64,000 bases of DNA from positions 7,440,001 through 7,504,000 of the forward strand of contig OX442314.1 of NCBI GenBank assembly GCA_949358305.1. The letters run 5' to 3'. Position 1 is the stretch's first letter; every line of letters begins with the position of its first letter. The notes below the pieces were generated by a model, which saw nothing but the letters and a program-made list of their open reading frames with translations, was not told where the DNA came from and did not search any database. Below are positions 1 to 48,096 of the stretch, piece after piece. The position numbers were made by a program, and so were the translations under genes. This stretch comes from Strigamia acuminata (lineage: Eukaryota).

Positions 1-1714
1 TTTGTCATTAGCAATTGCTAGGGATACAGATACTGTACTTTGATCATCTCCTTTGCCTATTTCAGTGGAAGGTGTAAAGGTTATTTGATGACATGGACGT
101 CGACAGAGACAAGCAGTAATGGGATTTGTGGTTTGAATCAACTGCTTGGCAGCATTGTAATGCATCTGTATGTCCTTTGAACATTTACAAAGCGGCAAAT
201 CGATCTTCATGAAGGGAAATCTTTGATGGAACATTTGTAATCAGTATATTTTTATGTAGAACTACATCTTTCTCTCTACTAAGCGGGCTGCAACAATTGG
301 ACCAGAATGTCATACACTCATAAGGAGCGGAAATGATGTAGGGTACGGAAATGACGTAGGGAACAGAAATTACGCAGAAAACGAAAATCACGTAGAAAAG
401 AGAAACACCGTAGGGAACGAACGGAAATCAAGTAGGAAACGAACGGAAATCAAGTAGGAAACGAACTGAAATCAAGTAGGAAACGAACTGAAATCAAGTA
501 GGAAACGAACGCAAATCAAGTAGGAAACGAACAGAAATGACGTAGGACATGGTAACTCAAACAAACAATGTGATTTATCATGGGCAGCCACGCTGTCTGT
601 TGACTGTTTTGATTTCTTACCTGCATGTTAGCTTCTTAAATTTCTTCAATAGACACCTCAGATAACATTCTCTGTATTCGTTTTGACCGTAGCATTCATT
701 TATAGGTGAATTCAGAAAAATGAACTAAAATTTTTCAATAAAAAATAAGGTAATGCATAGGAATTTTCGTTCTTTGATAAAATTTTACTTTGTTATAACT
801 CAAATAAACTTTTGTTGTTCCACCGCCATATTGTTGTCCAACCCCGAAAAATTTTCCAAAATCGTAGAAATGAAGACCAAGCTAAGGGCGAAGGAAAGAA
901 AAGTAGACTAGAATTATTTTTGCAATTTATTAAAATTACAAAGTATATCGGAGCAGGGCATATGTCATCATAATTTGTTTCTATTTTAGCTGTCACGACT
1001 TTTCCAACAAATGATTCGCTAGATGCCTTAGCTGTATATCATTATATCAATAAATAATAAAGTGCATTGAACTTGATGGTGGTAAATTTTGATTATGCTT
1101 ACGAAATTGAATTGATGAGCATATACCAACATGATTGATCATTTCTGTCAGAACAAATGTTTTGTTTGAATAAGAATATCCCTATACAAAATAAAAAGAT
1201 TTAAATAATTTTTTTTTAACCTATTTAAAATTACTTTATTCCATCTTTTTACTTTTATTTTTACGCTCACTACTTCTTTCGTCAAATTACTCGCTTCCCA
1301 AAGTTCCTCTAGACTGTAAGTTGGGTTTCCCATCAGTGTATTTACCATGTTCACGCATTCGTAACGTGATGGTTGGGATTTTGAGTTAGTTTTATTCCAA
1401 AGTCTCGACATTTCTTTTGTATTGCTACTATATATCAACAAATTTGGTAGAACGACCTCTTCTGACCTACTCGTTACATCAACAGCCGTAGGATAATTTA
1501 AGTAATGCATTATCCTATCGTAAATCTGATAAGTGAGCATGCATGTGCAAAATGAGAATAAGAGCAGCCAAAAGGTGTTTCGCTTTGTCCAATATTTTCT
1601 ACTGTTAATGAAATCATCCAAACCAACTAAGTTGCATCGAAGTTTATTTGCATCATCCTTCAACAATCGATGAATTGCAGGACGTAGTCTCCTCACCAAA
1701 TTATTATTCCGCAT
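1..1714 (-). CDS. Tandem-domain DEG/ENaC gene, copy 1 (exons 1-6; runs off the left edge of the window)
   Basis: TM1 (FWLLLFSFCTCMLTYQI..Y..YPT..V..LPNL), a G-x-C exon and a Cys-rich exon (C..C.LRC..KKLTC/R) joined by GT-AG introns. ORF translations are identical to the copy at offset +11630. Confidence 0.85.
320..548. repeat. Intronic 18-22 bp minisatellite (aacggaaatcaagtagg-like); copy at ~11950-12178
   Basis: Visible tandem units inside the phase-2 intron of the ENaC gene. Confidence 0.8.
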
Positions 1715-1768
1715 TGTATCTTATTTAAATCCAAGGTTTATTCTGTAATGACAATTGATGATTGATTA

Positions 1769-2491: not shown

Positions 2492-3484
2492 ATACTCAAA
2501 CCCACTCTAAGCGTGGCCTAACTCTCATTGGCTGCGCCTTATTACTCCTAACTACAGACCGTGCACTACTGCAAAGAAAAATAGTTTTGTTTATTTTTAA
2601 TTGTTTTGAGTATTTTAATTATTAGAATCATGTATTTTTTTTATGTTATAAAAAATGTTTATTTCATTTACAAGATAAAGTTTTATATTGTTTTTCTTTC
2701 AACAAGCATCCTTGATTAGTTTTTTGGTTGCTTTGTCAGGAAAGCAAACAATTTTCTAACTGTGACCGTTTGGCCATCCTACGTGGCCTATGTCACTCCG
2801 CACACCGCCTAAGGGCCCCAAGCCGTCCCCCTCATGGGAATGGACCAGCCTAGCAGGGGAGGAGGTGAGCTGAGTGGTGTGGTGAGAGAGAGACGTTTCC
2901 GAGGGTGAAGACGTGCTAGGATGAGCTGCCACGGTCCTAACTACAGCAGAGACAACTGCTGACTCTGCTGCTCAGTCACGCTCAGTAGCAGGATGAGAAT
3001 GTTTGTCCGATGTGACCGACCACGTCACCCATGGGGCTCACTCCCTGTGTGTGACGGGTCGGTTACCGGTGTAGCGTGCCTACAGCCGCACAGTGGGATA
3101 GGTCCCTCCCGTGTAGTAAATCTCCATATTGGGCAGGTGAGACCATATCCAGTCACATCACAATAAGTAGTGCATGATACCCAGTTTAAGCGGTACTGTG
3201 CATGGCCAAGAGGCAGCTGCGTGGGCTGTTACTCGCTGTGCAAATGTTGTGCCCACCGAGGTAGTGGCCGAATGGTAGATCTGGCCCCTCCAACTTTACC
3301 TGTGGACGAAGACGCTGCCCAGGATCCAGGACATATTGTGCCCAGTACGGCGGACAATTACAATGTCTGTACGTCTAATAAAGTTCTGGTGTTTTGGCCT
3401 ACTTTTTGTATCACAATTCAATACACAAGTGAAATGGCTTGGCCAATGGGAGTTAGGCTACTCTTGGAGTGGGTTTGGGTGTAT
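2492..3484. mobile_element. Non-autonomous TIR element with a nested LTR-like repeat; copy at ~14122-15114
   Basis: Imperfect ~40-bp TIRs (tactcaaacccactctaagcgtggcctaactctcattggc versus ggccaatgggagttaggctactcttggagtgggtttgggtgta). Subterminal sequence resembles the 17271-17688 element. Confidence 0.55.
2761..3156. mobile_element. Solo-LTR-like dispersed repeat (TGTGAC...GTCACA); related inverted copy at ~58369-58750
   Basis: Terminal 6-bp inverted repeat. The segments gtgtgacgggtcggttaccggtgtagcgtgcc and gaccatatccagtcaca match the reverse complement of 58369-58570. No TSD found. Confidence 0.45.
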
Positions 3485-3783
3485 ATTTGTTTCATACCTG
3501 CTTATAGTTGTGTGGAAAGTTGCCTGCACGTTATTTCATGTCTACCAGTGCTGTGAGTTTACAATTGACTGTTCTTTCATTGTTTACTGTAATTTCTTAT
3601 TATCCATAGTAACTCTTTGTATGATGATTATTGATTTCAATTAACGTGTCTTTTGTGAGTGAAAGAAAGCTTAATTGGATTTTTGCACCATGTATACGGT
3701 AATTATTTACAGTAAACGTTTTGTTAAAAAAGAATTGATCATACAATGTCTACAACTTTGCAAGATTCCTATATCTAGAACCG

Positions 3784-6395: not shown

Positions 6396-6737
6396 CGTTG
6401 ACTTTCACCTTTTGGGTTTACCCAAAAGATCCGAGAGAGCAATCTCGTGACGTCATTCGTAGTCCACACTCGAATGACAACGTTCACAATGCGTTATAAT
6501 TTGTGACGTCATTCGGTGTCACCGAAACAAGTTCGTTTCTCCAATCAACGAACTTAGCCACTTTTCCGATAAGTTTTGAAGTGGATGCATCGACTCCGAT
6601 ACAGCACGACAGTTTTTCTTGATTCAGCAAACTGTAAGTAATTTTTCTGAAAGAAAAATTCAATAAATATATTTAATATAATTTATTAATTCTTTCTAGC
6701 CGAAAGAATTTCTTTTTCGACGCGAAAAAGAAGGAAA

Positions 6738-10912: not shown

Positions 10913-13344
10913 CTGTGTCAACTCGTGAACAATTACCAAAAGGAAGTGGAATAGGATGCTTCGATATATTTAATTTAATTTTATATCCATATAACGCCTA
11001 CAAAAACAATAATTTTCATTGATTGGTTTGTTTTGGGAATATAACATACTACTAGTACAGACATACCTCATTATCAATATCAATTGTGTCATGAATATTG
11101 AGTGTTTCCCAGATTTCGACAAGTGGAAATTCGTGATTGAACAATTGCCAGGGCGATATCTCATTGCAGGTGTTGTTAGTGTGTTTCAGTAATTGTAATC
11201 TGGTTTCGTCCATGGCATCATTTTGATTTTCACCACAGATCGTAAAGGACTGATATTCGGTGTAGCGACGTTGAACTATGCTAACCATTGTTGTTACTGG
11301 TTCATCAATGTAGTAGTTGATACGAATTTGCAACCAATATAAAGTGAATCCCGCAGTCACAAATACTAGCGCAAACTTAAACCTTTCTAAGACTCCATTT
11401 GTTATGGTTTTCTCTTTGCTTGCAATGGCTTTCTTCTTGCATGTCTCGTACAGGGGACGAATCTTATCGACGGATTTTTTTTGGTAAATATTTGTTGCAA
11501 CATAATATAAATACCAAATGATATCAGGTAATGAGATTACGGAGAGACCTAGGAACAGGCCCAGATTTCCTCCTAAATCTGACAGAAGAGCAATTGCGTC
11601 GTACGTGTATCGTTCTTCATACACGCTAATTTTGTCATTAGCAATTGCTAGGGATACAGATACTGTACTTTGATCATCTCCTTTGCCTATTTCAGTGGAA
11701 GGTGTAAAGGTTATTTGATGACATGGACGTCGACAGAGACAAGCAGTAATGGGATTTGTGGTTTGAATCAACTGCTTGGCAGCATTGTAATGCATCTGTA
11801 TGTCCTTTGAACATTTACAAAGCGGCAAATCGATCTTCATGAAGGGAAATCTTTGATGGAACATTTGTAATCAGTATATTTTTATGTAGAACTACATCTT
11901 TCTCTCTACTAAGCGGGCTGCAACAATTGGACCAGAATGTCATACACTCATAAGGAGCGGAAATGATGTAGGGTACGGAAATGACGTAGGGAACAGAAAT
12001 TACGCAGAAAACGAAAATCACGTAGAAAAGAGAAACACCGTAGGGAACGAACGGAAATCAAGTAGGAAACGAACGGAAATCAAGTAGGAAACGAACTGAA
12101 ATCAAGTAGGAAACGAACTGAAATCAAGTAGGAAACGAACGCAAATCAAGTAGGAAACGAACAGAAATGACGTAGGACATGGTAACTCAAACAAACAATG
12201 TGATTTATCATGGGCAGCCACGCTGTCTGTTGACTGTTTTGATTTCTTACCTGCATGTTAGCTTCTTAAATTTCTTCAATAGACACCTCAGATAACATTC
12301 TCTGTATTCGTTTTGACCGTAGCATTCATTTATAGGTGAATTCAGAAAAATGAACTAAAATTTTTCAATAAAAAATAAGGTAATGCATAGGAATTTTCGT
12401 TCTTTGATAAAATTTTACTTTGTTATAACTCAAATAAACTTTTGTTGTTCCACCGCCATATTGTTGTCCAACCCCGAAAAATTTTCCAAAATCGTAGAAA
12501 TGAAGACCAAGCTAAGGGCGAAGGAAAGAAAAGTAGACTAGAATTATTTTTGCAATTTATTAAAATTACAAAGTATATCGGAGCAGGGCATATGTCATCA
12601 TAATTTGTTTCTATTTTAGCTGTCACGACTTTTCCAACAAATGATTCGCTAGATGCCTTAGCTGTATATCATTATATCAATAAATAATAAAGTGCATTGA
12701 ACTTGATGGTGGTAAATTTTGATTATGCTTACGAAATTGAATTGATGAGCATATACCAACATGATTGATCATTTCTGTCAGAACAAATGTTTTGTTTGAA
12801 TAAGAATATCCCTATACAAAATAAAAAGATTTAAATAATTTTTTTTTAACCTATTTAAAATTACTTTATTCCATCTTTTTACTTTTATTTTTACGCTCAC
12901 TACTTCTTTCGTCAAATTACTCGCTTCCCAAAGTTCCTCTAGACTGTAAGTTGGGTTTCCCATCAGTGTATTTACCATGTTCACGCATTCGTAACGTGAT
13001 GGTTGGGATTTTGAGTTAGTTTTATTCCAAAGTCTCGACATTTCTTTTGTATTGCTACTATATATCAACAAATTTGGTAGAACGACCTCTTCTGACCTAC
13101 TCGTTACATCAACAGCCGTAGGATAATTTAAGTAATGCATTATCCTATCGTAAATCTGATAAGTGAGCATGCATGTGCAAAATGAGAATAAGAGCAGCCA
13201 AAAGGTGTTTCGCTTTGTCCAATATTTTCTACTGTTAATGAAATCATCCAAACCAACTAAGTTGCATCGAAGTTTATTTGCATCATCCTTCAACAATCGA
13301 TGAATTGCAGGACGTAGTCTCCTCACCAAATTATTATTCCGCAT
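10913..13344 (-). pseudogene. Tandem-domain DEG/ENaC gene, copy 2 (exons 1-7 open; exons 8-11 not present in this duplication unit)
   Basis: TM2 LLSDLGGNLGLFLGLSVIS is followed in the same exon by a second TM1 (FKFALVFVTAGFTLYWL..YY.DEPV..FTIC). The last visible exon ends PFGNCSRVDT|gtaatt. Downstream lies Gypsy A, then the upstream region of copy 1. Confidence 0.8.
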
Positions 13345-15476
13345 TGTATCTTATTTAAATCCAAGGTTTATTCTGTAATGACAATTGATGATTGATTACC
13401 GTATTTTGTCGATTAATTGCCGCGGCACTTATTCAAAACTGCCATTTTTGTCGGCATTTACAATTTTGGTTTTTCATTTGTTACATTTGTTTAATGTAAC
13501 AAACGAAGTCTGAACGTCACAAACGAAGCGTACGTTTATCGTTCGTGAGGTTAAATACTACTATTCGAGGGCGACTACAATTCAAGGGCGGCTACAGTTT
13601 GAGGGCGGCTACAATTCGAGGGCTACTCTGAATCGGTAAAATACGGTATAAACAATTTAATTATTGAATAGAATAAGTGTAGATGTTACGATCTTTTTAC
13701 CAGCTTTTGGTGGTGTGAAAATTTTGAAACATGGTCGACCCGTTGCAGAACCAGGTGACGCCCATTCGAAAGTCAAATTGACCGACTGGATTAAAAAAAC
13801 CAGTCAGGCCGAAAACGATATCGTGACATCGGTCGGATTAGACCGAATTCGTTATAAGTTTATATCGAAGGACTTACGACCGCGTACGATATATAAAAAT
13901 TGCTCGAACAAGTCTACGAGGATGAAAATCATGTCACTGTCAACGGAAGTCATCACAAAAGGATTATCATCCAAAGACGAAATTCAAACTATTCGCGCTT
14001 GTAAGCTTATTTTATTATACTTACCTTGTATTTATTTTATCCCCAGACATTATTAACCACTTTATTTCAGAGACAAAGTCTGTTTACAGCATCTCAACAG
14101 TAAATTAACCCGGATCACTGCATACTCAAACCCACTCTAAGCGTGGCCTAACTCTCATTGGCTGCGCCTTATTACTCCTAACTACAGACCGTGCACTACT
14201 GCAAAGAAAAATAGTTTTGTTTATTTTTAATTGTTTTGAGTATTTTAATTATTAGAATCATGTATTTTTTTTATGTTATAAAAAATGTTTATTTCATTTA
14301 CAAGATAAAGTTTTATATTGTTTTTCTTTCAACAAGCATCCTTGATTAGTTTTTTGGTTGCTTTGTCAGGAAAGCAAACAATTTTCTAACTGTGACCGTT
14401 TGGCCATCCTACGTGGCCTATGTCACTCCGCACACCGCCTAAGGGCCCCAAGCCGTCCCCCTCATGGGAATGGACCAGCCTAGCAGGGGAGGAGGTGAGC
14501 TGAGTGGTGTGGTGAGAGAGAGACGTTTCCGAGGGTGAAGACGTGCTAGGATGAGCTGCCACGGTCCTAACTACAGCAGAGACAACTGCTGACTCTGCTG
14601 CTCAGTCACGCTCAGTAGCAGGATGAGAATGTTTGTCCGATGTGACCGACCACGTCACCCATGGGGCTCACTCCCTGTGTGTGACGGGTCGGTTACCGGT
14701 GTAGCGTGCCTACAGCCGCACAGTGGGATAGGTCCCTCCCGTGTAGTAAATCTCCATATTGGGCAGGTAAGACCATATCCAGTCACATCACAATAGGTAG
14801 TGCATGATACCCAGTTTAAGCGGTACTGTGCATGGCCAAGAGGCAGCTGCGTAGGCTGTTACTCGCTGTGCAAATGTTGTGCCTACCGAGGTAGTGGCCG
14901 AGTGGTAGATCTGGCCCCTCCAATTTTACCTGTGGACGAAGACGCTGCCCAGGACCCAGGACATATTGTGCCCAGTACGGTGGACAATTACAATGTCTGT
15001 ACGTCTAATAAAGTTCTGGTGTTTTGGCCGACTTTTTGTATCACAATTCAATACACAAGTGAAATGGCTTGGCAAATGGGAGTTAGGCTACTCTTGGAGT
15101 GGGTTTGGGTGTATATTTGTTTCATACCTGCTTATAGTTGTGTGGAAAGTTGCCTGCACGTTATTTCATGTCTACCAGTGCTGTGAGTTTACAATTGACT
15201 GTTCTTTCATTGTTTACTGTAATTTCTTATTATCCATAGTAACTCTTTGTATGATGATTATTGATTTCAATTAACGTGTCTTTTGTGAGTGAAAGAAAGC
15301 TTAATTGGATTTTTGCACCATGTATACGGTAATTATTTACAGTAAACGTTTTGTTAAAAAAGAATTGATCATACAATGTCTACAACTTTGCAAGATTCCT
15401 ATATCTAGAACCGCCTATTTCTAGCACGCAAAAGCTACAGTAATTGGACGAAGAGGAAAATGGAATTATTAATTAC

Positions 15477-16819
15477 TACTAGTCAAATCCATATATCCTC
15501 ATACTCCTGTGAAAGTGAAAAAAATAAAATATTTGGATTGACCTAAAATTAAATCTAGTTTAAATTAAACCTTGAAATTTTAAGCAGTTAAATAGATACA
15601 TCTGAAGAAAGTACACACAAAATTTCATACCAATCGGGCTTAAAATAATAAAACTAGAAGCATATTCCAAAATAACATTTGATTCATATATCCTCATACC
15701 AGCTTGCACATGGTACAAATATCTTCATACTCTGTATTTTAATGTAAAAATTTTTACATTTACACAAAATTTTTATGTGAATGTGATCATATTAGTTAAA
15801 ATAGCATGTAACATTTCAAATATAGATCATTTGTCAGTAAAATGGCACCAGGAAAGGCTGTTTTCTGCACAAATACATGCCTGAATTGGCAAAGTTGCAC
15901 ATTGACCAGAACCAAATGACAGATTTGGGCCCTGGTAACTTTGCTAGGCTAGCAGCATGGAAAATGTCAGATAAAATAGTGCTTTCGGGCTCATCTTGTA
16001 CTATTTTTATGTGTCTTACAATTACACAGGAATCAGAGCTCCACTAGCAGAGAAAAATAAAAATTGACCATTTGATCATCACATGAAAAACACAATATTC
16101 TTGATGTATTAATGTACTTTGTCACATTTTTGGATAAAACACCAATTTACATGTAGGAGAAGTGATTGGCATGACTGGAAGTTGATGATATATGCAAATA
16201 GGTGAAAAAATGATTGGCATTTCTACGGCACATTTGGATGGAATTTTCAGGCCATGATGAATCAGATATAAAGTTTTTTCAGAGGTCATAAGAACTCATT
16301 ATCCTGTAGCAATATGATAAAAGATAAAATTAAAGTATACACTGCTATTCTTAAGGGAATACTATAAGTTTTAAAAGGAAAATACCCCGGTCAATGTGCA
16401 ACTTTGTCATTTCAGGCATGTATTTGTGCAGAAAACAGTCTTTCCTGGTGCCATTTTACTGACAAATGATCTATATTTGAAATGTTACATGCTATTTTAA
16501 CTAATATGATCACATTCACATAAAAATTTTGTGTAAATGTAAAAATTTTTACATTAAAATACAGAGTATGAAGATATTTGTACCATGTGCAAGCTGGTAT
16601 GAGGATATATGAATCAAATGTTATTTTGAAATATGCTTCTAGTTTTATTATTTTAAGCCCGATTGGTATGAAATTTTGTGTGTACTTTCTTCAGATGTAT
16701 CTATTTAACTGCTTAAAATTTCAAGGTTTAATTTAAACTAGATTTAATTTTAGGTCAATCCAAATATTTTATTTTTTTTAATTTTACAGGAGTATGAGGA
16801 TATATGGATTTGACTAGTA
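15477..16819. mobile_element. Foldback-type non-autonomous DNA element with ~430-bp near-perfect TIRs
   Basis: 15477-~15907 is the reverse complement of ~16389-16819 (tactagtcaaatccatatatcctcatac... / ...gtatgaggatatatggatttgactagta). No internal ORF. Confidence 0.85.
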
Positions 16820-22287: not shown

Positions 22288-22938
22288 TATTTAAATGACT
22301 GAAATTTTGAAAAGTTTCCCCAAATAACCGGGTCTATTCTGGCTGATACTTGTAATTATTTATTGCATTATTAATTCAAAAATACATTTAATATCGCCTG
22401 TGTGTAATAACAAATCGCATTGTGTAAGAAAATACAATTGTATGTTTTTAAAAGCTTCATACGTTTGGTATTTTTAAGAACATTAATATCTAACAAGAAG
22501 TAAATTATGAATTATGTTCTACTGAAATAATCACAACATTGAGATATCAGCGTTTCATCATAATGTTGTATTTCAGTTAAAAATGCAGCTTTAATATTTA
22601 CTAGGTTATATTTCTAATCTAAAATACGTTTTTATTATTGGAACCAAAATACAAAATATGAGTGTATAAGGCATCAGAAGAATTATTTTTATTTTTATTT
22701 TATGTAAATTTTAACTTGAATCACTCTACATTCACATCTGACTCCTAGATGAGAATACAAAGTTTATTTTGAAGTGCAAAAGTAGCAAACTTACTGCAAA
22801 TTAATGTTGTAAAAATTTTTGAACAAGTGCTTGTTGCATGTTATGAACGTTGCTAAGCAACTTTAACAATAATTTACAGTAGCGATATGAGTAAGAACAA
22901 AATTTCGCTGCATTAAACAGAAGCTTTGTGCAAAAATA

Positions 22939-23096
22939 GGTGCATTCAAAAAGTCTAAAACGTATGCAAAACTCGTTTCGTGTTTGGACGTGACGTCATT
23001 CCCATTCCCATTAAATAACATGTTATTCAATGGGAATGACGTCACGTACAAACACGAAACGAGTTTTAGAGGCGTTTTAGAGTTTTTGAATGCACC
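22939..23096. mobile_element. Palindromic hairpin MITE
   Basis: Whole-length inverted repeat ggtgcattcaaaaa...tttttgaatgcacc with ta flanks. Confidence 0.75.
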
Positions 23097-23243
23097 TAAT
23101 GCAACAATTTAATTTTGTAGCATTGTAAACTAGCCTTTAAATTAACAGCTGTAAACGATTAACAATACACTTAAACTTAGAACTAACATTTGAACAAGTT
23201 TGAAAATTGTCTTGGTCATAGATAGCTTTACCAAATTCATATT

Positions 23244-26200
23244 TTATTTCTTCTTTTGGAACCACATTGAAAAACTCTTATTCTTATACCAAGTAAAAGT
23301 GTTTAAAATGCAAATATAGAAAGACAGCAAAGACATTCCTAAACCTAATCCTATGATGCTACCGACATCGCTTAGCAATTGAGATATCGGATATGCCTGT
23401 TGCTCTTCAATACTCTCTAAGAAAGTATCAGAGAATTCAATATGAATTAATGTAAAAGGAAAATCCAATATTCTTTGCTTATTGCCATGCAAAACAAATT
23501 TCTGAAAAGTATTTTCACAAGGCAGTCTACATTTGCATTGTTTTTGATTTGAGTCAAAATTATTTAAATACATTAAATGAGCGGTAGTAATTTCTTGTGT
23601 TGTGTTACAAACTGGCAAATCTGCTCTCCAGAAATAAGGTAATCTGAAACATTTACAAACAATTGTAGTACATTGTAGGCTGCATAGCCCGGACATAGCA
23701 CCATCCGGACAGCTGTGTGGTCCGGACAGTTTGGAGGGCCTGATTTGGTCCCGCCCAATACCCAGCAATATTAAATCTCCTCTCCCATCCGGACATTCCC
23801 TAGACCGGACAAGTTTCTGGGTCCTGTCCTATGTCAGGGCTACGCAGCCTACACTGTATTTAACTTAACTGAAATGCATAAGAATTTTTTGAACGACAGG
23901 TGCATATCTATGTGTTGCTAACAGGACAAAATCATAATTGAGATGTGTAGGAAGTGAAGTTTCTGGATTAGCATACCTGCATTTAACGGTTTGAAACAGA
24001 TTGTTTTGGATGCAAGCATTTTTACACTTGAGATAAGCACTTTTGTGTTGCTCACATGGATTTTGCTTTGTATTTCTTCGTATAGTCTGTTTTATAAAAT
24101 CCAAATAAGTTAGAATGAAAGCGTGTAAGTATAGTTTGTTTAATTTATTACCTTAAGTGCTCGAAGTGTTACTATGTTCCACCAATCATACTTTAAAGTC
24201 ATAGGTGCTAAGATGTTAACTTCTTCATGTGGATTATTTAAGAAAAACTAAATACCGTATTATTATTATTATTTCATAGTAATGAATATTTATCCATAAT
24301 TGACAAAATGTTCTTTGACCAATCTTTGTATTTAATTACTGCATTGGAGTGTTGAATGCAACAAATAATAAATAAATAGTACCTTCAAATCCTGGTCACA
24401 TGGTTTGTAGGGAAATTCATTATGTAATGTAATATAAACGTAAGAATTTAGGTCCTTTGATTTTTCTGCAAAACATTGCAAAGGTCAGGATAAAATCTTC
24501 AGATGCATGAGATACAGTAGAAAGAATTTAGTTTGGGATTTCAAAACATGGTCTTAAAAATTAATGGTGTCAATTTATCACAATTCTTCAAAATGGCCAA
24601 CGATCACAAAGCTGCTACACAGCTTGCGGGATTAAAAGTTCTTACATAGCCCGGTAAAAATCAGAATAATTGATTACAGCATAAATTATTATATGCATAG
24701 TTGTCATGAACCGCATTCCGCGCTCTTTTAAATCCATTGTTTTGTACATTACACGTAATCCTATTAGCTCCTAATTGTTTAACATCTTGTGTTCTGTTTG
24801 CCTATGTTAAAATAAACCTAATTCCTTAATGATTTACCTGAATTCCTCCATTGATTGATGTTTCGTGTTGAGTTTATCCCTTGGACTGTTCTGGTTCAAT
24901 TTATTAATGTTAGTTTTAAGAGTTTATGTTTATATAACGTGTAAGCCCATGAGCTTAATGAGAGCTTTAATTAGCCATTGGCCATTTTGGCAACCTTTCT
25001 TCCTGTGTTAATTCACAATACGCTTCCGTGCAGTTTAAATTACTCATGGTGTGCTCTCAATAGTCACTCCACGTGTTTGTTCATATTTTATATTTTAGAA
25101 ACCTCTTCTTTTTGTTGATCTGTTCTATTTAATGTTTAATGCCGTTGATATGTGCCTAAGGATCGGAATTAAGCCCATTTGCCATTGTGTCTTTTTCTGT
25201 ATCTTTTGTGCACGGAGTTAAAGCGCGATTGCTCGATTTGGCCATCTCCCCATAAGAGATCCTAACCAGTTTGGCGCGGCATTGGTTTCTACGGTAATCT
25301 GGTCGTTGATGACAGCCATAACGGCACGTAACCTCAACTGGACTGTGGATACGCGCTGGGTTGGTACAAAACATATTTCCACTTGAGCCGAGTAAGGCAT
25401 ATGCCGACTTATTGAACAGTAAAAATATTTTTTGTTGAAAAAATCGAATTGTGCGCCCACTGATGCCGCCCTAGAAATATGTGCACCCACAGATGCCGCC
25501 TCTGGAAATATGCCACCTGAGGCAACCGCCTCACCGCCTCACACCTCGCACCGGCCCTGCAATTATTCTTGCTTTTTATAATTCCAAAGAACCCATGCTT
25601 AATTTGTGAATGATCGAGCGAGGGGATAGCTCGCCGCCACACTTCAGGCGGATTATCACAAAATAAGCCTTCGTTCAAACAAGGCCCTCCTAATTTTGTA
25701 CCCGGCATGTCTTTCAAACGTGTTTACCCTTTCTTATAAATTTAATAAAAAAGCACATTATAATTACCTATGTTAATTCGTGAACAATTACCAAAAGGAA
25801 GTGGAATAGGATGCATTGATATATTTAATTTTTTTTTATATCCATAAAACATCTACAAAAAGAATAATTTTCATTTCTGCGTTTCTTTTTGGAATAAAAC
25901 ATACTACTAGTACGGACATACCTCATTATCAATATCAATTGCGTTAAGAACATTGAGTGTTTCCCAGATTTCTACAAGTGACAAGTCGTTATTGAACAAT
26001 TGCCAAGGCGATATCTCACTGCAGGTTTTGTTAGTGTGGTTCAGTAAATATGATCTGGCTTCGTCCATATCATCATTTTGGTGTTCAGCACAGAGGGTGA
26101 CTGACGGAAATTTGGTATGACGACGTTGAACTATTTTAACCATTAATGTTACCGGTTCATCAATGTAGTAGTTGATACGAATTTGCAGCCAATATAAAGT

Positions 26201-28661
26201 GAATCCCGCAGTCACAAATACAAGCACAAACTTAAACCTTTCTAAGACTCCATTTGTTATGGTTTTCTCTTCGCTTGCAATGACTTTCTTCTTGCATATC
26301 TCGTACAGAGGACGAATCTTTTCGACAGATGTTTTTCGATGAATGTTTGTTGCAACATAATATAAATACCAAGTGAGTTCAGGTAACGAAATTAATGCTA
26401 GGCCGAGAAACAGGCCAAGATTGCCTCCTAAATCTGACAGTAGAGCAATAAAGTCATAGGTGTATCGCTCTTCAAATATGCTAATTTTGTCATTAGTAAT
26501 TGCTAGAGATACTGATACAGTTTTTTTATCATCTGCTAGGCCTATTTCAGTGGAAGGTGTAAAGGTTATTTGATGACATGGTCGTCGACAGAGACAAACA
26601 TTAATGGGATTTGTGGTTTGAATCAACTGCATTGCAGCAAAATAAAGAGCATCTATGTCCTTCGAACATTTGCAAAGTGGTAAATCGATCTTCATGAAGG
26701 GAAATCTTTAATGAAAGATTTGTATTTATTATTTTTTTTACGTCTTCTCTGCACTAACTTGTAAGTGGGAGCGAAAATGACGTAGAAAACGGAAATAACG
26801 TAAAAAACGTAAATGGCGTAAAAAACGGAAATGACATAGAAAACGGAAATGGCGTAGAAAACGGAAATGACGTAGAAAACGGAAATGACGTTGAAAACGG
26901 AAATGACGTAGAAAACGGAAATGACGTAGAGAACGGAAATGACGTAGAGAACGGAAATGACTTTGGGAACGGAAATGACTTTGGGAACGGAAATGATGTA
27001 GGGAACGGAAATGGTGTAGGGAACGGAAATGATGTAGGGAACGGAAATGATGTAGGGAACGGAAATCATGTAGCAAACGTACATGATGTAGGGAATAAGG
27101 AGCAGTTCATTTTTCTGCCGCCGGCAGCTGGAGCAGTCTGCTTTTACTGGGTATAACAGAAAGTTTACATGTGACTAACACTTAGATTTTTAGTGAACTT
27201 AAAGCAAATACAGGATATTAAACGCCGGGGCATTTATTAATTTTTCCAACCGACCCTCCCATCTCCATGGTCGATTCTATTCAGGGCAGCGTGCTGTGCA
27301 ATAAACGCCCAGCGTTTAAATGAGTCTCGGCATCTGTTTAAACCCGGCGTTTATTCGAGGCAGTATAGTATGATATTATTTAAAGTCACAAATTTTATTT
27401 GGAATCACAAAAATGCTCTAGTCTCATTTAAACTTTCTGTTGTCCCCCAAGAAAAGTAGACTGATCCATCTGCAGTATGACTGCATGTGAAGATTTTTTT
27501 GGCCATAGGTGTACATTTGGCACATTAGTGACCTTGCCCCTTTGCAAATTTTTTCATCTTATACCTGCATGTTAGCTTCTTCATAAATTTTTTTAATAGA
27601 CACTTTCGATAGCATTCTCTGTATTCATCTTGACCCGAACATTTATTTATTGGTGAATTCAGAAAAATGAACTAAAATTATTGAATAAAATAAGGAGATC
27701 ATAATAATTTTTGTTCAAGAAAAAATTTTTACTTTGTTATAAGTTAAATAAACTTTTGTTGTTCCACCGAGATTTTGTGATCCCACGTGGAGGTTTTTTC
27801 CAAAATCATAGAAATAAAGATGAACCTACAGGCAAAGAAAAGAAAAGTAGCCGACAATCATTTTTGCAATTTAATAAAATTACACTGTAAGGTGCTGCGG
27901 GGCACACGTAATCATCACTACTTCCTATTTTGACTGTTACTTCTTGTCCAACAAATGATTCGCTAGATGCCTTAGCTAAATATCAATAAATAATAAAGTG
28001 CATTGAAGTTGATAATGGAAAGTATTCAATTATACTTACGAAAATTAATTGATGAGCATATTCCCAAATGATTGCTCATTTCTGTCAGAACAAATGTTTT
28101 GTTTGAATTAGAATATCTCTATGTAAAATAAAGAGATTTATATAATTTTTTTAACTCATTAAAAATCACTTTATTCCATCTATTTACATTTATCTTTACG
28201 CCCACTACTTCTTTCGTCAAATTACTCGCTTCCCAAATTTCTTCTAGATTGTAAGTTGGGATTTCTATCAGTGAAGTCACCATGCTCATGCAGCTGGTTG
28301 AATGTTCATCAGTTTGATTTCTCCAAAGTTTTACCATTTCTTTCGTATTGCCACTACATATCATCAAATTTGGTAGAACAACCTCTTCCGATCTACTTGT
28401 TACATCAACAGCCGTAGGATAACTTAAGTAATGCATTATCCTGTCATTAGTCTGAGAAGTGAGCATGCACATGCAAAATGAGAACAAAAGAAGCCAAAAC
28501 AGGCGCCGGTGGCTCCCACGATGATTGGTATTGATAAAATCATCCAAGCCAATTACGTTACATCTAAGTTTATTTTCATCGTCCTTCAGCAATCGCTGAA
28601 TCGCAGGACGTAACTTTCTTAATCTTTGGCTGCTTCTTCTAATGGAATAGTTATTCTGCAT
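23244..28661 (-). CDS. Intact tandem two-subunit DEG/ENaC (pickpocket/ASIC-like) channel, 11 exons, ~796 aa
   Basis: Hand-spliced exons 28661-28200, 28118-28040, 27975-27884, 27825-27733, 27671-27565, 26705-25922, 25852-25768, 24465-24383, 24247-24152, 24086-23977 and 23643-23244. All introns are GT-AG and phase-compatible with no internal stops. Two TM1s, two G-x-C motifs, two Cys-rich thumbs (CxCxxPC) and two TM2s (GGNLGLFLGLA; GSIIGLGLGMS). The exon-1 donor could be 6 nt earlier. Confidence 0.9.
23671..23856. mobile_element. MITE in the last ENaC intron
   Basis: ta|cattgtaggctgcatagcccggacatag...ctatgtcagggctacgcagcctacactg|ta. Confidence 0.75.
26772..27095. repeat. Intronic 18-bp minisatellite (aacggaaatgacgtagaa)n
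   Basis: About 17 tandem units; they generate the spurious YVISV/HFRSL ORFs. Confidence 0.9.
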
Positions 28662-31218: not shown

Positions 31219-31694
31219 CCTTCCCATAGCCAAGCGTGGTTACAACACGTTGCTAGCTGTGGACGGTCAAATTGGCCTTCTTTTAAAATGCTTCTGTGCA
31301 TGTGCAGAATCTTATTTTTTTCAGGTGCAATTGCATTTTTTCTGGTTTGAGCACATTAAAACATGTGTTGAGGCCAGGAAAAATGTGATTGCACCTAAAA
31401 AATTAAAATTCTGCACATGCGCAGAAGTGTTTCAATATACCGCCTAGTGCTAAAAAGTGGCAAAACAGTGTACGGCGCTCACGTAATGGTGTTTTATGTT
31501 GTAAATTGTCTTCCTATTATTAGTTTAACTTATTCATAATCAAAAAAATGTTAGAACTTAGTTATTATAAATTTAGAAAAAATATTTTTGGAGGAATTAT
31601 AGCTGGTCCCCTAAATTAATTTTAAGGAAAAAAAGAGTTACAGCTATTTTTCTACTTTTGTTTTTTTTCTGACCCCACCATGGCTGTAGGAAGG
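31219..31694. mobile_element. piggyBac-like MITE
   Basis: TTAA|ccttcccatagcca...tggctgtaggaagg|TTAA. Confidence 0.8.
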
Positions 31695-33342: not shown

Positions 33343-34744
33343 TAGGCTTGTGTGATTAATTTTTGCCGCGAATGCGATTGCGATATTTGATTGTTGCGAT
33401 TTTTTTTCAATATATCGCATTAGCGATATATCGCGATATAATCGCAATAATCGCATTAATTGCAATAATCGCAAGATATCGCAATATCGCAATATCGCAA
33501 CAACACAAGTCAAGTCACACGTACGTTCGTTGTACGCAATCGAAGCGCCGGCATATTACGCGCATTTGGCGGGTTTCAACAATAGAATTAAATTTGTCAA
33601 TTTATTTTTTATTTATTTTTGTTTTGGTTTAGGATGGATAATTCGGGGATGGACTAATCGGCAGCTGTCAGCTGTCACCTGTCGAATGCCACGGCCGTCA
33701 CTCGACACGACAGTCGTCAGTCGACACGACAGTCGTCAGTCGACACGACAGTCGTCAGTCGACACGACAGTCGTCAGTCCACCGTCACTTGTCGAATGTC
33801 GACTGTTGCGGCTGACGGTCGACATTCGACGGCTGACAGTCGACGTCCGACGGACAGGACATTCGACAGCTGACGGTCGAAAGTCGACGGCTGATGGCCG
33901 CAACATTTGACAGGGGACAGCTGACAGCTGCCGATTAGTCCATCACCGAAATATTATCCATCATAAACCAAAACAAAAATAAATAAAAAATAAATTGACA
34001 AATTTAATTCTATTGTTGAACCCCGCCAAATGCGCGTAATATGCCGGCGCTTCATCCCGTACAACGAACGTACGTGTGACTTGACTTGTGTTGTTGTGAT
34101 ATTGCGATATTGCGATCAATGCGATTATTGCGATTATATCGCGATTATTGCGATTACGTCGCGATTATTGCGATTACGTCGCGATTATTGCGATTACGTC
34201 GCGATTTTTGGGATTACGTCGCGATTTTTGCGATTACGTCGCGATTATTGCGATTACGTCGCGATTATTGCGATTACGTCGCGATTATTGCGATTACTAC
34301 GCGATTATTGCGATTACATCGCGATTATTGCGATTACATCGCGATTATTGCGATTACATCGCGATTATTGCGATTACATCGCGATTATTGCGATTACATC
34401 GCGATTATTGCGATTACATCGCGATTATTGCGATTACATCGCGATTATTGCGATTACATCGCGATTATTGCGATTACATCGCGATTATTGCGATTACATC
34501 GCGATTATTGCGATTACATCGCGATTATTGCGATTACATCGCGACTATTGCGATTACATCGCGATTATTGCGATTACTTCGCGATTACTTCGCGATTATT
34601 GCGACTACATCGCGATTATTGCGATAACATCGAGATTATATCGCGATATGCGATATATCGCAAACGACCGCTAGTGACTTAACTAGCTGCGATATTCGCA
34701 AAAAAAAATCGCATTGCGATTAATCGCAAATTCGCACAGGCCTA
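33343..34744. mobile_element. Non-autonomous hAT-like element, largely palindromic
   Basis: Perfect 8-bp TSD ctgatgat (33335-33342 and 34745-34752); TIR taggcttgtg...gcacaggccta. Confidence 0.85.
34120..34640. repeat. 20-bp CpG-rich tandem array (gcgattattgcgattacRtc)n inside the hAT element
   Basis: More than 20 near-perfect units. Confidence 0.95.
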
Positions 34745-35681: not shown

Positions 35682-37382
35682 TATGACGAACACGGTATTG
35701 TTTATGCGATATCATGCCAAATCCCACCGATAGATGGCGCTGACGTCAATAAGCGGCAAATTCGAATAGAATTTGTCACTTGATGTAAAACCACATAAAA
35801 TATAACTTTTATGTGATTTTAAGACAGAGAATCGACTTTATCTTATATTTATGGAAATAAATACAGATATTATGTTGTTTTGTGGTAACTCTGCAAAGTT
35901 ACCTCAAAAACTAGGTTTAGGGGATTAAATCTCCCCCTCGCACCTGCTCCAAGCGTGGACCCCCGCGGATCAAGTTGAAAGACTTAATCCAAAAGTGTTC
36001 CTCGCTATCCAGTTCCTGTCCCGACCTAGCAGAGAGCTATGGCCTGAGTATCCAGTTCCTGTTGACCACCTGGACTGGAAATGTGCTCTGAGTATCCCAT
36101 CACCTGGACCAGTGATTGGGGGGATTTGCAGGACCATTGCTCTCATTGGAGCAATGGCCAAGCTATTGTTTTCCCCGAGTATATACTTCCTCGCAACAGG
36201 AAGTAGCTCGCTCTTGACCAGATATTTGACTATATGTTTTCTTGAGCCCATTCTACTACTCCGGTTGTCATGTTGATTGCGCAGACACTTGCTTGTCTGT
36301 TGATTGCGCAGTCAATGCCCCTTATACTGCGGGCCTATGACAACCTACATACGGCGTACACTTGACGTGGAGATGGGTGATATGATGCCTCCATGTCCGG
36401 GTGCCCGATGACGGCTGTGTGGCCGTGAGGAGATCAGGTCGCGGCGATGAGTAGTAAGAATCCCGTCGGGCCGGATATAATTCAACAAGTGTTCCACAAG
36501 GCCTGCCAGTTACAGTAAACCACGGCTGCCGAACAGCGTGTCGAAAATGTAACATTAGGGTTGAAATAACTAAACTCGGAAAAGTTTAGTTAGATTAAAT
36601 CCCCAGCTAGTTTATGTCACAACTCAACATTGTGCATAAACACGGATACTTCTTCCAGAACTGTACAAAACTGAAGACTAGCTACATTAGCATTTACTTG
36701 CCAGTAAATGTGTAGCTAAATTGCCAACTTTATGTAAGCAGAATTATTACGAGTATTTACTGAATAAGTAATACTCTAATAAATACATCCATTACACGGA
36801 ACCAGAAGTTATGATTGTAAACTTGCAACAGTTTACTCTCGTATGAAGAACCATTTGACGTATCACACCAATTATAGATGTCTTAAAACATCTATAAGAG
36901 GTCAATTGGTAAATGGCTCTCACAAGCCATTTAAACCAATAACCGCCCCAAGTTTGTGGCGATGCAGATACAGTCAACCGGAAGTCCTCGGATACTAACC
37001 CTTTCATTACAGATTCGAACCAGGACCAAATAATCAACCGATTCAGACGACATCTTACCAGGACGAAGCCGATTGATATTATTATAGCGCCGCACAGGCA
37101 ACTATATGTATAGTTTAATCGAGAATTCCTTTGGCCATTTGTCGGCATAGTTATTGTGTAACTATATTTTATGCAAATTGATTAATATAATCACTTTACG
37201 GTGATTATATTTAGATATCAATAAATATGTTATGTCTTGATAACCGCATGTGTCATTATTTTACCCAGTTCACACTTTAGGTTTTGTCAATCCTATCTCT
37301 CAACTACTGAATAGATAGACTAGCTTGTTATGCCAAAATACACATTTTGAGCGGATAGCGTCATCGAAAGGTCATCGTCACA
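35682..37382 (+). repeat. Gypsy B 5' LTR
   Basis: TATGACG...CGTCACA; no differences from the 3' LTR noticed (all LTR ORF translations are identical). Confidence 0.95.
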
Positions 37383-38855: not shown

Positions 38856-41800
38856 ATGACACATCATCGTAATCTGTTCGACACCCTGAATCAGACGAGA
38901 GATCAGGAAGACGAGAATCAATCGCGGAACCAGCTTACTCCTATAACGGAGGAAAGTGTTGGTTTGCGATGAATTATTTGCGATAATCATATTTGTTGTG
39001 CATTTCCGAGTAGGCACAATAAGCGCGTTACTTCATATATTGGTACGAATGGTCAGCCAGTTGATTCTGCTTTTTAAACTACGCTTGTTTCGTACTCCAG
39101 CTGGCTGTGTCTATGTGATAACGCGCGTCCCGTCGTCTGCTTGTTAAGCGATGATCGTTTAATTTGGTTTGGTATTGTTTATCCATTACTTTAGTCTTTA
39201 CGTTGTATTATTGTAAAGAATAAATCTATTTGGTTATACTAATAGATTTGTTCTCGTTGTTACTCTGTAACCTGAGTTGAGATCAAATAGCCTCAACCCA
39301 GATCACTTGTTTTTATGCTTTCATGGTGAATAAAGATGGCGGTCGCGTGTTGCGAACTAACCGCACTTTATAATCGGTTTGCAAGTTATTTCCGCATGCT
39401 CCAGGTCCAAATACGCTCTTCAAATGGTAGCAGAGGATCGGCGACGACCAGCGCCGGCCAATTTTAGAAGAATTGAAGAGAAACGGACATTTTTCCGACT
39501 ACGAGAAGTCGCAAAGTGCGCGCCCGCCCAATTCGTCGTGAAAACGAATTTTCGGTGCGGCAAACGTCTGGATTACGTGTGCGGACCATTCTGCAAAGGA
39601 ATAGGATTCCAACGGTGTAAGGAATATTTATTTCGAACGATTTAAACTGTATTTTTGCCGATATAACCGGGCTTTCTCGGGCGGCGCCATTTTTGTTGAG
39701 CTTCGCTGCAGAATACGGCGAAGTTAGTGTGTCTACGCGTGTGTACGGACCGGCACACGCACGCCCAACGATTCTACAACGGAATACGTCGACAGGACGG
39801 TATTTTGGAGCGAAGAAACGTCCCAAAACCGTCATTTTTTCGAGAAATCACCGTGAATCGACGATTTTGTTACGGCGGCCATTTTTCGTCAAAAATAGAC
39901 GGAAAAACGACGATTTGATTCACCGAGAAGTCCTGCACACGATAAGCGTGTGTGTGGGCAATTGTTTCCGTATCTCGCACCAGGAAAGCGAGTACGAAGG
40001 CGCAGACGGGCGCTACGACGATTTTCTCCGCGCTTACACGGATGTGTGTACGCGGATTGCACGTCAGCCGATTCCGTGCGAAGACAACGTGAAGCCGACG
40101 TTTAATCCAACGTGGGAACCAGTTACGACGCGTGGAACCCGTAACTGGCCAACTTCACATCAAAAACTGTATTTTTCGAATTTTTCTCGTGAAACTCTGT
40201 TATTTATTAAGGTTTTTGTGTTGGGTCACTTAGAATATTCTGTACCCTTCGGGCAGTCGCCCCAGTACAGTCTCATTCCAGTCTGGGCTTGTCCGTGGCC
40301 AACTAGTCGTCCCGCGTCCCCCAGGTGGGCCGGTCGGAAGCTAGTAGGGCGACCAGATTTGGGTTTTTCATCTCACTTATTGAGGTGCCCCTTGGGAAGT
40401 GTAAAATTATTTCGCCTTCAATTTTTGGGGGCAAATTGCTTCTCCGTGCGACATATTCACGTGTATTGTGAATATTTGTGTTTTTCTTCGGAAATTTTGT
40501 GATTTAGCGATTTGTGCGTCGTTTTTCGTCGAATTTTCTCAACATGGCAAGTTGGGATCGCCGGGACGACTATAAGGACGTGGAAAAATTGAATGGAACG
40601 AACTATTCGACGTGGAGTGTTCAAATCCAACTCCTTTTGCAATCATATGGAGTTTGGGGCCACGTGACTGGCAAGGAGAAGCCCTTGCCAGCCACGGCTT
40701 CTGCAAAAGAAGTTAGGGAGTTTGACAAGCGCGAGGAGAAAGCGCGCTCCACCATTTGTCTGGCTTGTGGAAAAGCCCAACAGGTAGTGGCTGTGGCACA
40801 CGAAGGGGCCAAAGAGGTTTGGGAAGCGCTCAAAGCTGCTTACCAGCCCACTACCAGGGCACGCAAAGCCCGACTTCGTCGCGAATTTCTCATGTTGAAA
40901 CTCCATGAGCAAGAGGAAATGATGGTTTTCCTAGCCAGAGTCGACAGGAAGGCGCTGGAACTGAAAGACGTCAAAATAGACATTTCCGACGAATTCCTGG
41001 CCTTCCAGTACCTGGATCTGCTGCCACATCAATACGAAACGGTCAAGCAGACGGTCTACCACTGGGGAGACCCGGAATTCACCTCGAAGGCCGTCAAAGA
41101 ACGTTTATTAGGCGAATATAATCGCCTCTACGAGCAAACGGATGAATTTGGTGTTTCATTGGGCACAATTGAGAATACGGGTGCCTATTTCACCAAAGGC
41201 AGATGGCAACGTGGCCGGGGGGGAAATGCCCCCAGTTCTCCACGCGTCTGTTACAACTGTGGCGGAACAAATCACTTCGCCCGGGAATGCTCGTCCCCAC
41301 CAAAACAGCAACAAGGTGCTACGAGAGGAAACCCGACAGGACAGTTCAGCAGGGGCAGTCAACGAGGGAAGAGTCGTGGGAAGAGCCAGCAGACGGCCAA
41401 CGTCACGCAAATGGACATTTTTAGCAATTCCCCGGTGTCTTATTTCTCCGCAGCGATTTGCCAAGAACAACCCCCTGTTGTAGTGTCTTTATTGTCGCAT
41501 GCGAACTACGATTCGCAATGGTACGTCGACACAGGTGCGACGGACCACTTTTCGTTCAACAAAACCTGGTTTTCGGACTTTAAACCATTGACTGGTTATT
41601 CTGTTCAACAAGGAGACGGAAAGTCGAAAATTGAAGGCATTGGAAATGTGACTTTAGTTTCGATTAATGGACAACAAACACGTGAACTAACGTTGAAAAA
41701 CGTTTATTACGCACCCAACTTCAAAAAGAATTTGATTTCTTTAGGTCGTACGGATGAAGCTGGGGCGACAACCATTGTGAAAAATGGTAAAATGTTTATT

Positions 41801-48067: not shown

Positions 48068-48096
48068 GGGGGGTTGAACCAACCATTTCAGCCCCC
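48055..48096 (+). promoter_or_regulatory. -1 programmed ribosomal frameshift signal (gag-pol)
   Basis: A_AAA_AAC in the gag frame, a 7-nt spacer, then the stem GGGGGTTGAA/TTCAGCCCCC. The -1 frame is open into pol. Confidence 0.85.

What the first reader, a model, noticed from the sequence alone, without database searches (positions are those of the whole stretch)
23244..28661. Natural head-to-tail two-subunit DEG/ENaC concatemer
Seen: one 784-nt exon (26705-25922) encodes TM2 of a first DEG/ENaC module, a ~35-aa basic linker and TM1 plus FPSVTLC of a second module. There is no stop or intron between them, so the fusion does not depend on splice prediction. The same fusion is open in the diverged paralog at 11052-11864, which argues for selection. 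Known: DEG/ENaC subunits have two TMs and assemble as trimers. Inference: a 4-TM dimer cannot form a trimer alone. It could fix a 2+1 heterotrimer with a separate monomer, leave modules dangling, link neighbouring channels, or be cleaved in the linker. I cannot tell whether it has been described for this lineage.
Basis: partly seen in the sequence, partly recalled or inferred. Interest (0 to 1): 0.85.

Follow-up and report, generated by a model that had tools for sequence, protein, structure and literature searches.

The report
Natural two-subunit DEG/ENaC fusion channel
This gene, likely from a centipede, encodes two sodium-channel (DEG/ENaC) subunits joined head to tail in one reading frame, a layout shared by a family of predicted centipede proteins, and it likely works by pre-building two thirds of a normally three-part channel so that subunit order is fixed.

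Summary
An 11-exon model (all GT-AG, no internal stop) gives an 806-aa protein with two complete DEG/ENaC modules. The TM2-linker-TM1 junction lies inside one 784-nt exon, and both modules share five intron positions, so the gene arose by duplication and fusion. It is not a one-off. Twelve Strigamia maritima UniProt models carry the same kind of junction. First and second modules form separate, well-supported clades, so one ancient fusion expanded into a deep subfamily, with a position-specific, altered pore helix in module 2. A second, younger Strigamia fusion and decapod crustacean proteins have three modules; none with four was seen. An AlphaFold model of a two-module relative is confident as one unit (pTM 0.74). 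Most likely the chain fills two adjacent places of a trimer and a separate subunit fills the third; this is inferred and untested. Ten literature searches found no description of natural DEG/ENaC concatemers.

The parts
28170..28661 (-). Exon 1: ATG, N-terminal amphipathic helix, pre-TM1 loop (IG in place of HG), TM1 and start of ectodomain of module 1
   Evidence: donor is a weak GTGATT, conserved in position in copy B
28040..28118 (-). Exon 2 (module 1, G-x-C strand)
   Evidence: predicted, GT-AG; same in copies A and B
27884..27975 (-). Exon 3 (module 1 ectodomain)
   Evidence: predicted
27733..27825 (-). Exon 4 (module 1 ectodomain)
   Evidence: predicted
27565..27671 (-). Exon 5 (module 1, first half of cysteine-rich thumb)
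   Evidence: predicted
25922..26705 (-). Exon 6, fusion exon: thumb and TM2 of module 1, linker, TM1 and FPSVTLC of module 2
   Evidence: 55% identical over 99% of its length to S. maritima T1JEH2
26360..26452 (-). TM2 of module 1 (about residues 373-403; canonical D-x-GG-N-x-G pore helix, filter GLA)
26249..26365 (-). 39-residue basic linker, predicted cytosolic; resembles a short C-tail plus the N-terminal helix of module 2 without the re-entrant loop
   Evidence: topology inferred from the family
26171..26236 (-). TM1 of module 2 (about residues 445-466)
   Evidence: hydropathy; own HMM
25768..25852 (-). Exon 7 (module 2, counterpart of exon 2)
   Evidence: predicted
24383..24465 (-). Exon 8 (module 2, counterpart of exon 3)
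   Evidence: predicted
24152..24247 (-). Exon 9 (module 2, counterpart of exon 4)
   Evidence: predicted; matches T1JEH2 at 58%
23977..24086 (-). Exon 10 (module 2, counterpart of exon 5)
   Evidence: predicted
23244..23643 (-). Exon 11: thumb, TM2 of module 2 (about 23381-23292; D-x-GS-I-x-G, filter GMS) and stop
   Evidence: Pfam ASC E 1.5e-12
10913..13344 (-). Copy B: exons 1-7 only, 76% identical in module 1; fusion exon 11850-11067 open; exons 8-11 absent from the window
1..1714 (-). Copy A: exons 1-5 and the start of exon 6, cut by the window edge; coding part identical to copy B

Best explanation
The gene has two whole DEG/ENaC modules in one reading frame, with the junction inside a single exon, and its predicted four-helix chain likely fills two neighbouring places of a three-subunit cation channel while a separate subunit likely fills the third. 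Shown: the fused frame, the duplication origin (shared introns), the family, and position-specific conservation of both pore helices. Predicted: both modules fold as DEG/ENaC subunits and pack against each other. Inferred: the short cytosolic linker holds module 2 next to module 1 in a fixed order; module 1 keeps the canonical pore helix and module 2 supplies a modified one, like a beta/gamma-type partner; a free single-module paralog completes the trimer, so one gene fixes stoichiometry and handedness, and the choice of third subunit would tune the channel. A sensory role (acid, heat or chemical) is a guess from the nearest characterised relatives.
For: 806-aa model, 10 of 10 introns GT-AG, no internal stop. 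Intron phases 0,1,0,0,2 in both modules; 4 of 5 positions in the same alignment column, 1 of 5 three columns off. 35 of the 150 listed hits (of 232 at E<=0.001) have a TM2-to-TM1 junction by my own HMMs, 33 of them with a 14-65 residue gap. 12 of these are named S. maritima models. Careful tree, 50 rows: first modules one clade 98/89, second modules one clade 99/94; a separate recent fusion for the window's subfamily is rejected (p-AU 0.00085). Pore helix: GG in 14 of 14 first modules versus GS/GN in 8 of 9 second modules; acidic residue after the filter in 11 of 14 versus 1 of 8; filter S/C/T in 9 of 9 second modules. In two DNA runs at least 5 diverged contigs cover the linker, the 3 contigs with indels each net a multiple of three, and 0 of the 40 listed substitutions makes a stop. 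AlphaFold2 of two-module P0010: pLDDT 78.7, pTM 0.74 over 791 aa; each half superposes on a centipede channel subunit (Z 21.8, rmsd 5.0, 332 aligned; Z 19.9, rmsd 3.4, 316 aligned). Module number tops out at three: 10 of 150 hits have three TM2 matches, none four. Precedent: human beta-gamma ENaC dimers with an empty third place (bioRxiv 10.1101/2024.05.28.595834, passages).
Against: Nothing here shows the third subunit or the oligomer. Engineered two-subunit ASIC1a fusions gave currents when expressed alone and were partly clipped (PMC4529235, passages), so a separate gene may not be needed. Between copies C and B the module-2 part has dN/dS 0.73 (0.40-1.61) and the linker 0.49 (0.13-2.03), neither below 1 with confidence. 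The window gene has Ala at the module-1 filter serine where copy B and the S. maritima relatives have Ser. Module 2 lacks the re-entrant loop. The S. maritima entries are automatic gene models, several clearly mis-joined or truncated. The structure was predicted for a relative about 25% identical, not for the window protein, and I could not inspect the angle between modules. P0051, inside the module-2 clade, keeps the acidic residue. The species of the single-module sister proteins was not determined.
Confidence: 0.5

Rival explanations
1. Self-assembly without a third gene: a second tandem chain lends one module to complete the trimer and its other module dangles or seeds a second pore, so three chains would build two covalently linked channels or larger clusters.
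For: Engineered ASIC1a dimers conduct alone (PMC4529235, passages). Both pore helices are conserved. The tandem family is large while no partner monomer was identified.
Against: Linkers of 34-62 residues are short for bridging two channels (inference). Strict position-specific pore motifs fit a fixed arrangement better than mixed A-B-A and B-A-B pores (inference).
Confidence: 0.22
2. Polyprotein: the linker is cut in the cytosol and the two subunits assemble freely, the fusion only ensuring equal amounts.
For: Linkers are K/R-rich and low-confidence in the model (residues 397-422); engineered concatemers are partly clipped in cells (PMC4529235, PMC10329638, passages).
Against: No conserved cleavage motif is visible across 30 junction linkers. 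The linker is predicted to be cytosolic, away from lumenal furin (established topology). Basic residues are expected next to membrane helices. Module 2 has lost most of its own N-terminus.
Confidence: 0.1
3. Two tandem chains form a four-module pore with two-fold symmetry, as two-pore potassium channels do, giving a non-trimeric DEG/ENaC.
For: A two-module design was kept through a deep expansion; a tetrameric ASIC1a state has been argued from cross-linking (PMC4529235, passages).
Against: The nearest solved relatives are trimers (3 chains per entry). Other natural fusions stop at three modules. The fold of each module is ordinary.
Confidence: 0.07
4. The fusion is a stop-loss relic or annotation artefact in decaying, repeat-rich DNA and is not made as one protein.
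For: No transcript evidence in hand; copy B is truncated, the region is full of LTR elements and recent duplications; module-2 dN/dS against copy B is not clearly below 1.
Against: Intact 806-codon model; module 2 is 48-53% identical to S. maritima relatives, as module 1 is (47%); frame-keeping indels in paralog linkers; position-specific clades over 2-3 substitutions per site.
Confidence: 0.06
5. The chain stays a non-conducting two-module receptor or a trap that binds and silences single-module paralogs.
For: Degenerate second pore helix and lost re-entrant loop; stable ENaC dimers exist.
Against: Module 1 keeps a canonical pore helix; PDPNaC1 lacks HG yet conducts (PMC12714832, passages).
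Confidence: 0.05

Closest known systems
BRTNaC1 and PDPNaC1, centipede (Scolopendra) DEG/ENaC channels (PDB 8YMR/8YMW/8YMX, 9JF7)
   Same: Best sequence and fold matches among solved structures; compact ectodomain; PDPNaC1 also lacks HG.
   Different: Single-module homotrimers, only 17-20% identical to either module and outside the tandem clades (rows s46, s69; identified).
Uncharacterised Strigamia maritima UniProt models T1JEH2, T1JGJ4, T1JEG4, T1IYF0, T1J963, T1ITL7, T1JD34, T1JBK6, T1IPM9 (old fusion) and T1IU28, T1IZL2, T1ITG7 (young fusion)
   Same: Same TM2-linker-TM1 junction; T1JEH2 is 47% identical overall.
   Different: Automatic models named 'uncharacterized'; several truncated or mis-joined; the young clade has two or three modules and a separate origin (p-AU 0.0001).
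Engineered ASIC/ENaC concatemers
   Same: Head-to-tail subunits in one chain that can form working channels with set stoichiometry (PMC4529235, PMC10329638; passages).
   Different: Man-made, with whole N- and C-tails plus added linkers; here the natural linker is about 39 residues and the modules have diverged (69 of 361 identical).
Human ENaC beta-gamma dimer (PDB 9BTU) and alpha/delta/beta-beta-gamma trimers
   Same: A two-subunit unit with an open third place taken by alternative subunits.
   Different: Non-covalent, separate genes.
K2P, TPC and Nav/Cav channels; tandem cyclic-nucleotide-gated channels (recalled, no call)
   Same: Natural concatenation of subunits of an oligomeric channel, with position-specific pore residues.
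   Different: Tetrameric P-loop family, where two or four modules close the pore evenly; two modules cannot close a trimer.

Membership tests
DEG/ENaC (Pfam ASC PF00858) | Sequence match to ASC in each module | tested here: met
   Exon 1 E 5e-10, exon 6 two stretches E 8e-17, exon 11 E 1.5e-12, all above the cut-off. The spliced protein itself was not scanned.
DEG/ENaC (Pfam ASC PF00858) | Two membrane helices per subunit around a large ectodomain | tested here: met
   Met per module (TM1 51-105, TM2 360-401, TM1 442-495, TM2 749-782 as HMM envelopes); the chain has four, which departs from the family norm.
DEG/ENaC (Pfam ASC PF00858) | Cysteine-rich thumb and post-TM1 FPxxTxC motif | tested here: met
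   16 and 14 cysteines; LPNLMIC and FPSVTLC; thumb aligns with BRTNaC1 and PDPNaC1.
DEG/ENaC (Pfam ASC PF00858) | Palm-finger-thumb fold | tested here: met
   Tested on relative P0010 only: Z 21.8 (module 2) and 19.9 (module 1) to centipede channels.
DEG/ENaC (Pfam ASC PF00858) | G-x-S filter in TM2 | tested here: inconclusive
   Module 2 GMS; module 1 GLA in this copy, GLS in copy B.
DEG/ENaC (Pfam ASC PF00858) | Pre-TM1 His-Gly motif | tested here: not met
   IG in module 1, loop missing in module 2. Not universal: conducting PDPNaC1 lacks it, so this does not exclude membership.
DEG/ENaC (Pfam ASC PF00858) | Trimeric assembly | not tested
DEG/ENaC (Pfam ASC PF00858) | Cation current, amiloride block | not testable with these tools
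   Needs electrophysiology.
BRTNaC1/PDPNaC1 orthologues | Same clade and single-module architecture | tested here: not met
   Outside the tandem clades; 17-20% identity.
Old Strigamia-type two-module subfamily (defined here) | Module 1 and module 2 fall in their own clades; short junction; altered second pore helix | tested here: met

The most novel reading that the evidence does not exclude
Arthropods have repeatedly evolved natural concatenated DEG/ENaC channels: an old two-module subfamily in centipedes that works as a covalent two-thirds channel with an exchangeable third subunit, a younger two- to three-module centipede clade, and three-module decapod proteins that are whole single-chain pseudo-trimers, each position carrying its own pore helix. 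This would be the trimeric counterpart of the K2P/TPC/Nav concatenations.
Probability: 0.55. Interest if true: 0.9.

Novelty: new variant of a known kind. Interest (0 to 1): 0.82.

Why it matters
DEG/ENaC subunits are textbook two-helix monomers, and linked subunits are known to me only as laboratory tools. A natural, old and expanded family of linked dimers, with independent three-module forms, would show that this family also took the concatenation route. It makes long-standing questions directly testable: how subunit order and an asymmetric pore set selectivity and gating, whether trimers assemble through a dimer intermediate, and what a two-module chain does in a three-place channel. It also warns that annotation pipelines which split or discard multi-ASC models lose real genes, and it offers an evolved short linker for building defined heteromers.

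Tried and rejected
No whole genome is held for the window. No RNA holder listed; this says nothing on expression. The two runs laid are contigs from one study and may be the window's own source, so they are not independent, and depth was not used as copy number. Complex prediction (tandem plus a third ectodomain) was not available: the queue was full and nothing was folded. The three-module model P0044 was too weak to use (pLDDT 56, pTM 0.36, 10 sequences). The metagenome scan gave 18 loci, none matching across the whole junction. The alignment search of the 90% database returned only the query. The Atlas gave only generic ASC clusters. Three look-ups in earlier scan notes returned nothing. 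A hidden intron, internal start or polyadenylation in exon 6 was considered and found no support. Dropped as evidence: P0105 (Helobdella, 182-residue gap), P0022 (junction skipped by the model), P0068 (repeats without TM1), P0028 (Polypedilum, genome model only, may be merged neighbours), and the first module of P0087 (begins with what looks by eye like a retroelement fragment; left out of the trees). Local-paralog dN/dS was rejected as proof of selection on module 2.
Full report
Observation. On the minus strand an 11-exon model from 28661 to 23244 has 10 of 10 GT-AG introns, 2421 coding bases and one stop, at the end: 806 aa. Exon 6 (26705-25922, 784 nt) runs from the thumb and TM2 of a first DEG/ENaC module through a 39-residue basic linker into TM1 and FPSVTLC of a second. 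Pfam ASC matches exon 1, exon 6 (two stretches) and exon 11. There is no in-frame ATG between codons 313 and 476 and no canonical polyadenylation signal in the exon. A 40-codon stretch stays open by chance about 7% of the time at this composition, so the case for selection must come from elsewhere.

Origin. The five introns of module 1 have phases 0,1,0,0,2, and so do those of module 2. In an alignment 4 of 5 fall in the same column and 1 of 5 is three columns off, although the modules share only 69 of 361 residues. Exon 6 is thus the last exon of one gene copy joined to the first exon of the next. By eye the linker is a short C-tail plus the N-terminal amphipathic helix of module 2 without the re-entrant loop; a few relatives with longer linkers keep that loop (P0011, P0026).

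Local copies. Copy B (13344-10913) has exons 1-7 with the same splice sites and an open fusion exon, but no exons 8-11 in the window; read-through of intron 7 stops after about 10 codons. Copy A (1714 to the window edge) is identical to B in its coding part and lies in a 3787-base duplication with 11 differences. dN/dS of C against B is 0.41 (0.30-0.55) for module 1, 0.42 (0.27-0.66) for exon 6, but 0.73 (0.40-1.61) for the shared part of module 2. This pair does not prove selection on module 2. In two DNA runs, which may be the window's own source, at least 5 contigs with 29-49 differences cover the linker; the 3 contigs with indels net 0, -6 and +3 bases; of the 40 listed substitutions (127 more not shown) 20 are silent, 20 change a residue and none makes a stop when tested singly. 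So the organism appears to hold several more fused paralogs with the frame kept.

Family. A search with the exon-6 protein among longer proteins found T1JEH2 of the centipede Strigamia maritima, 55% identical across the whole junction. The profile-free scan of 1.84 billion representatives gave 232 hits; of the 150 listed, 35 have a TM2 followed by a TM1 by my own HMMs, 33 with a gap of 14-65 residues. I could look up 21 proteins: 12 are S. maritima models; 15 other junction-bearing hits were not looked up. One unnamed 241-aa protein spans the junction on a 1154-base contig (P0036). The window's species is not given; the nearest relatives and an MBD-bearing Copia element (described for Strigamia and spiders in PMC6673714, abstract) point to a centipede, which is an inference.

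Trees. Proteins were cut into modules. In the careful tree (50 rows, 397 columns, mixture model; the mis-joined first module of P0087 left out) 13 first modules form one clade (98/89) and 14 second modules another (99/94, with P0051, which reads as a tandem whose junction the gene model skipped); the two are sisters at 96/79. A separate recent fusion for the window's subfamily is rejected (p-AU 0.00085). T1IU28, T1IZL2 and T1ITG7 form a third clade (100/100) with two or three similar modules; one origin for both fusions is rejected (p-AU 0.0001). Both tests were named after I had seen earlier trees, so their p-values are generous. Decapod proteins (Penaeus vannamei, Petrolisthes) have three modules and group apart in the 85-row quick tree. 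Their long frames sit on assembled contigs barely longer than the frame (1001 aa on 3.4-4.0 kb in 5 records; 1268 aa on 4.4-4.6 kb in 3 records of an unnamed source), so these are continuous frames, probably transcripts, though the record type is not given. Ten of 150 hits have three TM2 matches and none has four; the sample is biased towards relatives of the query.

Pore helices. All 14 first modules keep D/N-x-G-G; 8 of the 9 second modules that reach TM2 have G-S or G-N; the acidic residue six places after the filter serine is present in 11 of 14 versus 1 of 8; the filter position is S, C or T in 9 of 9 second modules (the flanking glycines were demanded by the search pattern; five second modules end before TM2; P0051 has G-A and keeps the acid). 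Module 2 is therefore conserved but systematically different, which fits a pore-lining partner better than a decaying appendage. The decapod proteins likewise show a distinct motif at each of three positions.

Structure. The spliced window protein could not be folded, so the two-module relative T1JD34 (P0010) was used with 54 sequences: pLDDT 78.7, pTM 0.74, low confidence only at the ends and in the linker. A pTM this high over two equal halves suggests a confident packing of one module on the other (inference); I could not measure its geometry, and likeness to solved trimers may drive it. Each half superposes on a centipede channel subunit, BRTNaC1 or PDPNaC1.

Mechanism. Shown: fused frame, duplication origin, family, position-specific conservation. 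Inferred: a four-helix chain with a short cytosolic linker that places module 2 beside module 1 in a trimer, completed by a third subunit. I put a separate single-module partner at 0.5, self-assembly with dangling or bridging modules at 0.22, cleavage at 0.10, a four-module pore at 0.07, artefact at 0.06 and a non-conducting role at 0.05. That the fusion is a real protein I put near 0.9. For 2+1: fusions stop at three modules, the pore helices are position-specific, and human beta-gamma ENaC dimers leave a third place open for alternative subunits (bioRxiv 10.1101/2024.05.28.595834, passages). Against: engineered ASIC1a dimers conduct alone and are partly clipped (PMC4529235, passages), and I identified no partner.

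Literature. Ten full-text searches found no report of natural multi-module DEG/ENaC. Seen: PMC9974506 (first fifth of the text); passages of PMC5203786, PMC7067487, PMC12714832, PMC8438182, PMC4529235, PMC7510291, PMC10329638 and the bioRxiv preprint; PMC6673714 (abstract); the S. maritima genome paper PMC4244043 has no ENaC term in its main text. No supplements were read. Subscription papers are not searched, and the BRTNaC1 structure paper and Vizueta et al. 2020 on Strigamia channel repertoires were not seen, so a prior mention cannot be excluded. The comparison with K2P, TPC and Nav is recalled.

Verdict. The mechanism is untested. Interest 0.82.

Noticed in passing
window 40508-45388 (- strand); second partial copy 59323-61005: Intact Copia retrotransposon ORF with a methyl-CpG-binding domain between integrase and reverse transcriptase (Pfam MBD E 2.7e-10); matches the published CopiaMBD family of Strigamia and spiders (PMC6673714, abstract).
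   Followed up: partly
window 45779-52320 (+); 3675-9388 (+); 53474-55429 (+): Gypsy-type gag and pol ORFs in overlapping frames inserted next to the Copia element; a pol fragment and two long ORFs with no convincing Pfam family (761 and 651 aa), possibly gag-like or accessory.
   Followed up: partly
window 43706-48383 vs 59323-64000; 35682-37382 vs 56161-57861; gap of 200 N at 59123-59322: Near-identical duplications (99.98% and 100%) beside an assembly gap; recent duplication or assembly artefact.
   Followed up: no
window 1-3787 vs 11631-15417: 99.7% duplication holding the 5' part of the channel gene; all 11 differences lie beyond position 3139, outside the gene. T1JEH2 also starts with a partial duplicate of its first module, a similar tandem partial copy.
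   Followed up: partly
window 26766-27095 and 11951-12176: 18-base minisatellite in intron 5, shared by copies C, B and A.
   Followed up: no
window 22937-23098, 31283-31435, 15477-16819, 33430-34665: Palindromic and inverted repeat elements, one just 3' of the gene with very high contig depth, probably MITE-like; a 20-base tandem array at 34100-34640.
   Followed up: no
P0044/P0151, P0062, P0100, P0125/P0159, P0142, P0148, P0056, P0083: Three-module DEG/ENaC-like proteins, named as decapod for the P0044 and P0125 clusters; most have a much shortened middle ectodomain. Candidates for single-chain trimers and worth their own study.
   Followed up: partly
P0005, P0006, P0007, P0013: Young Strigamia clade with two or three closely related modules: a second, independent fusion (P0013 not looked up and not in the tree).
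   Followed up: partly
P0028: Polypedilum vanderplanki model with three whole pickpocket-like modules and 26-34 residue gaps; may be real or a merge of neighbours.
   Followed up: no
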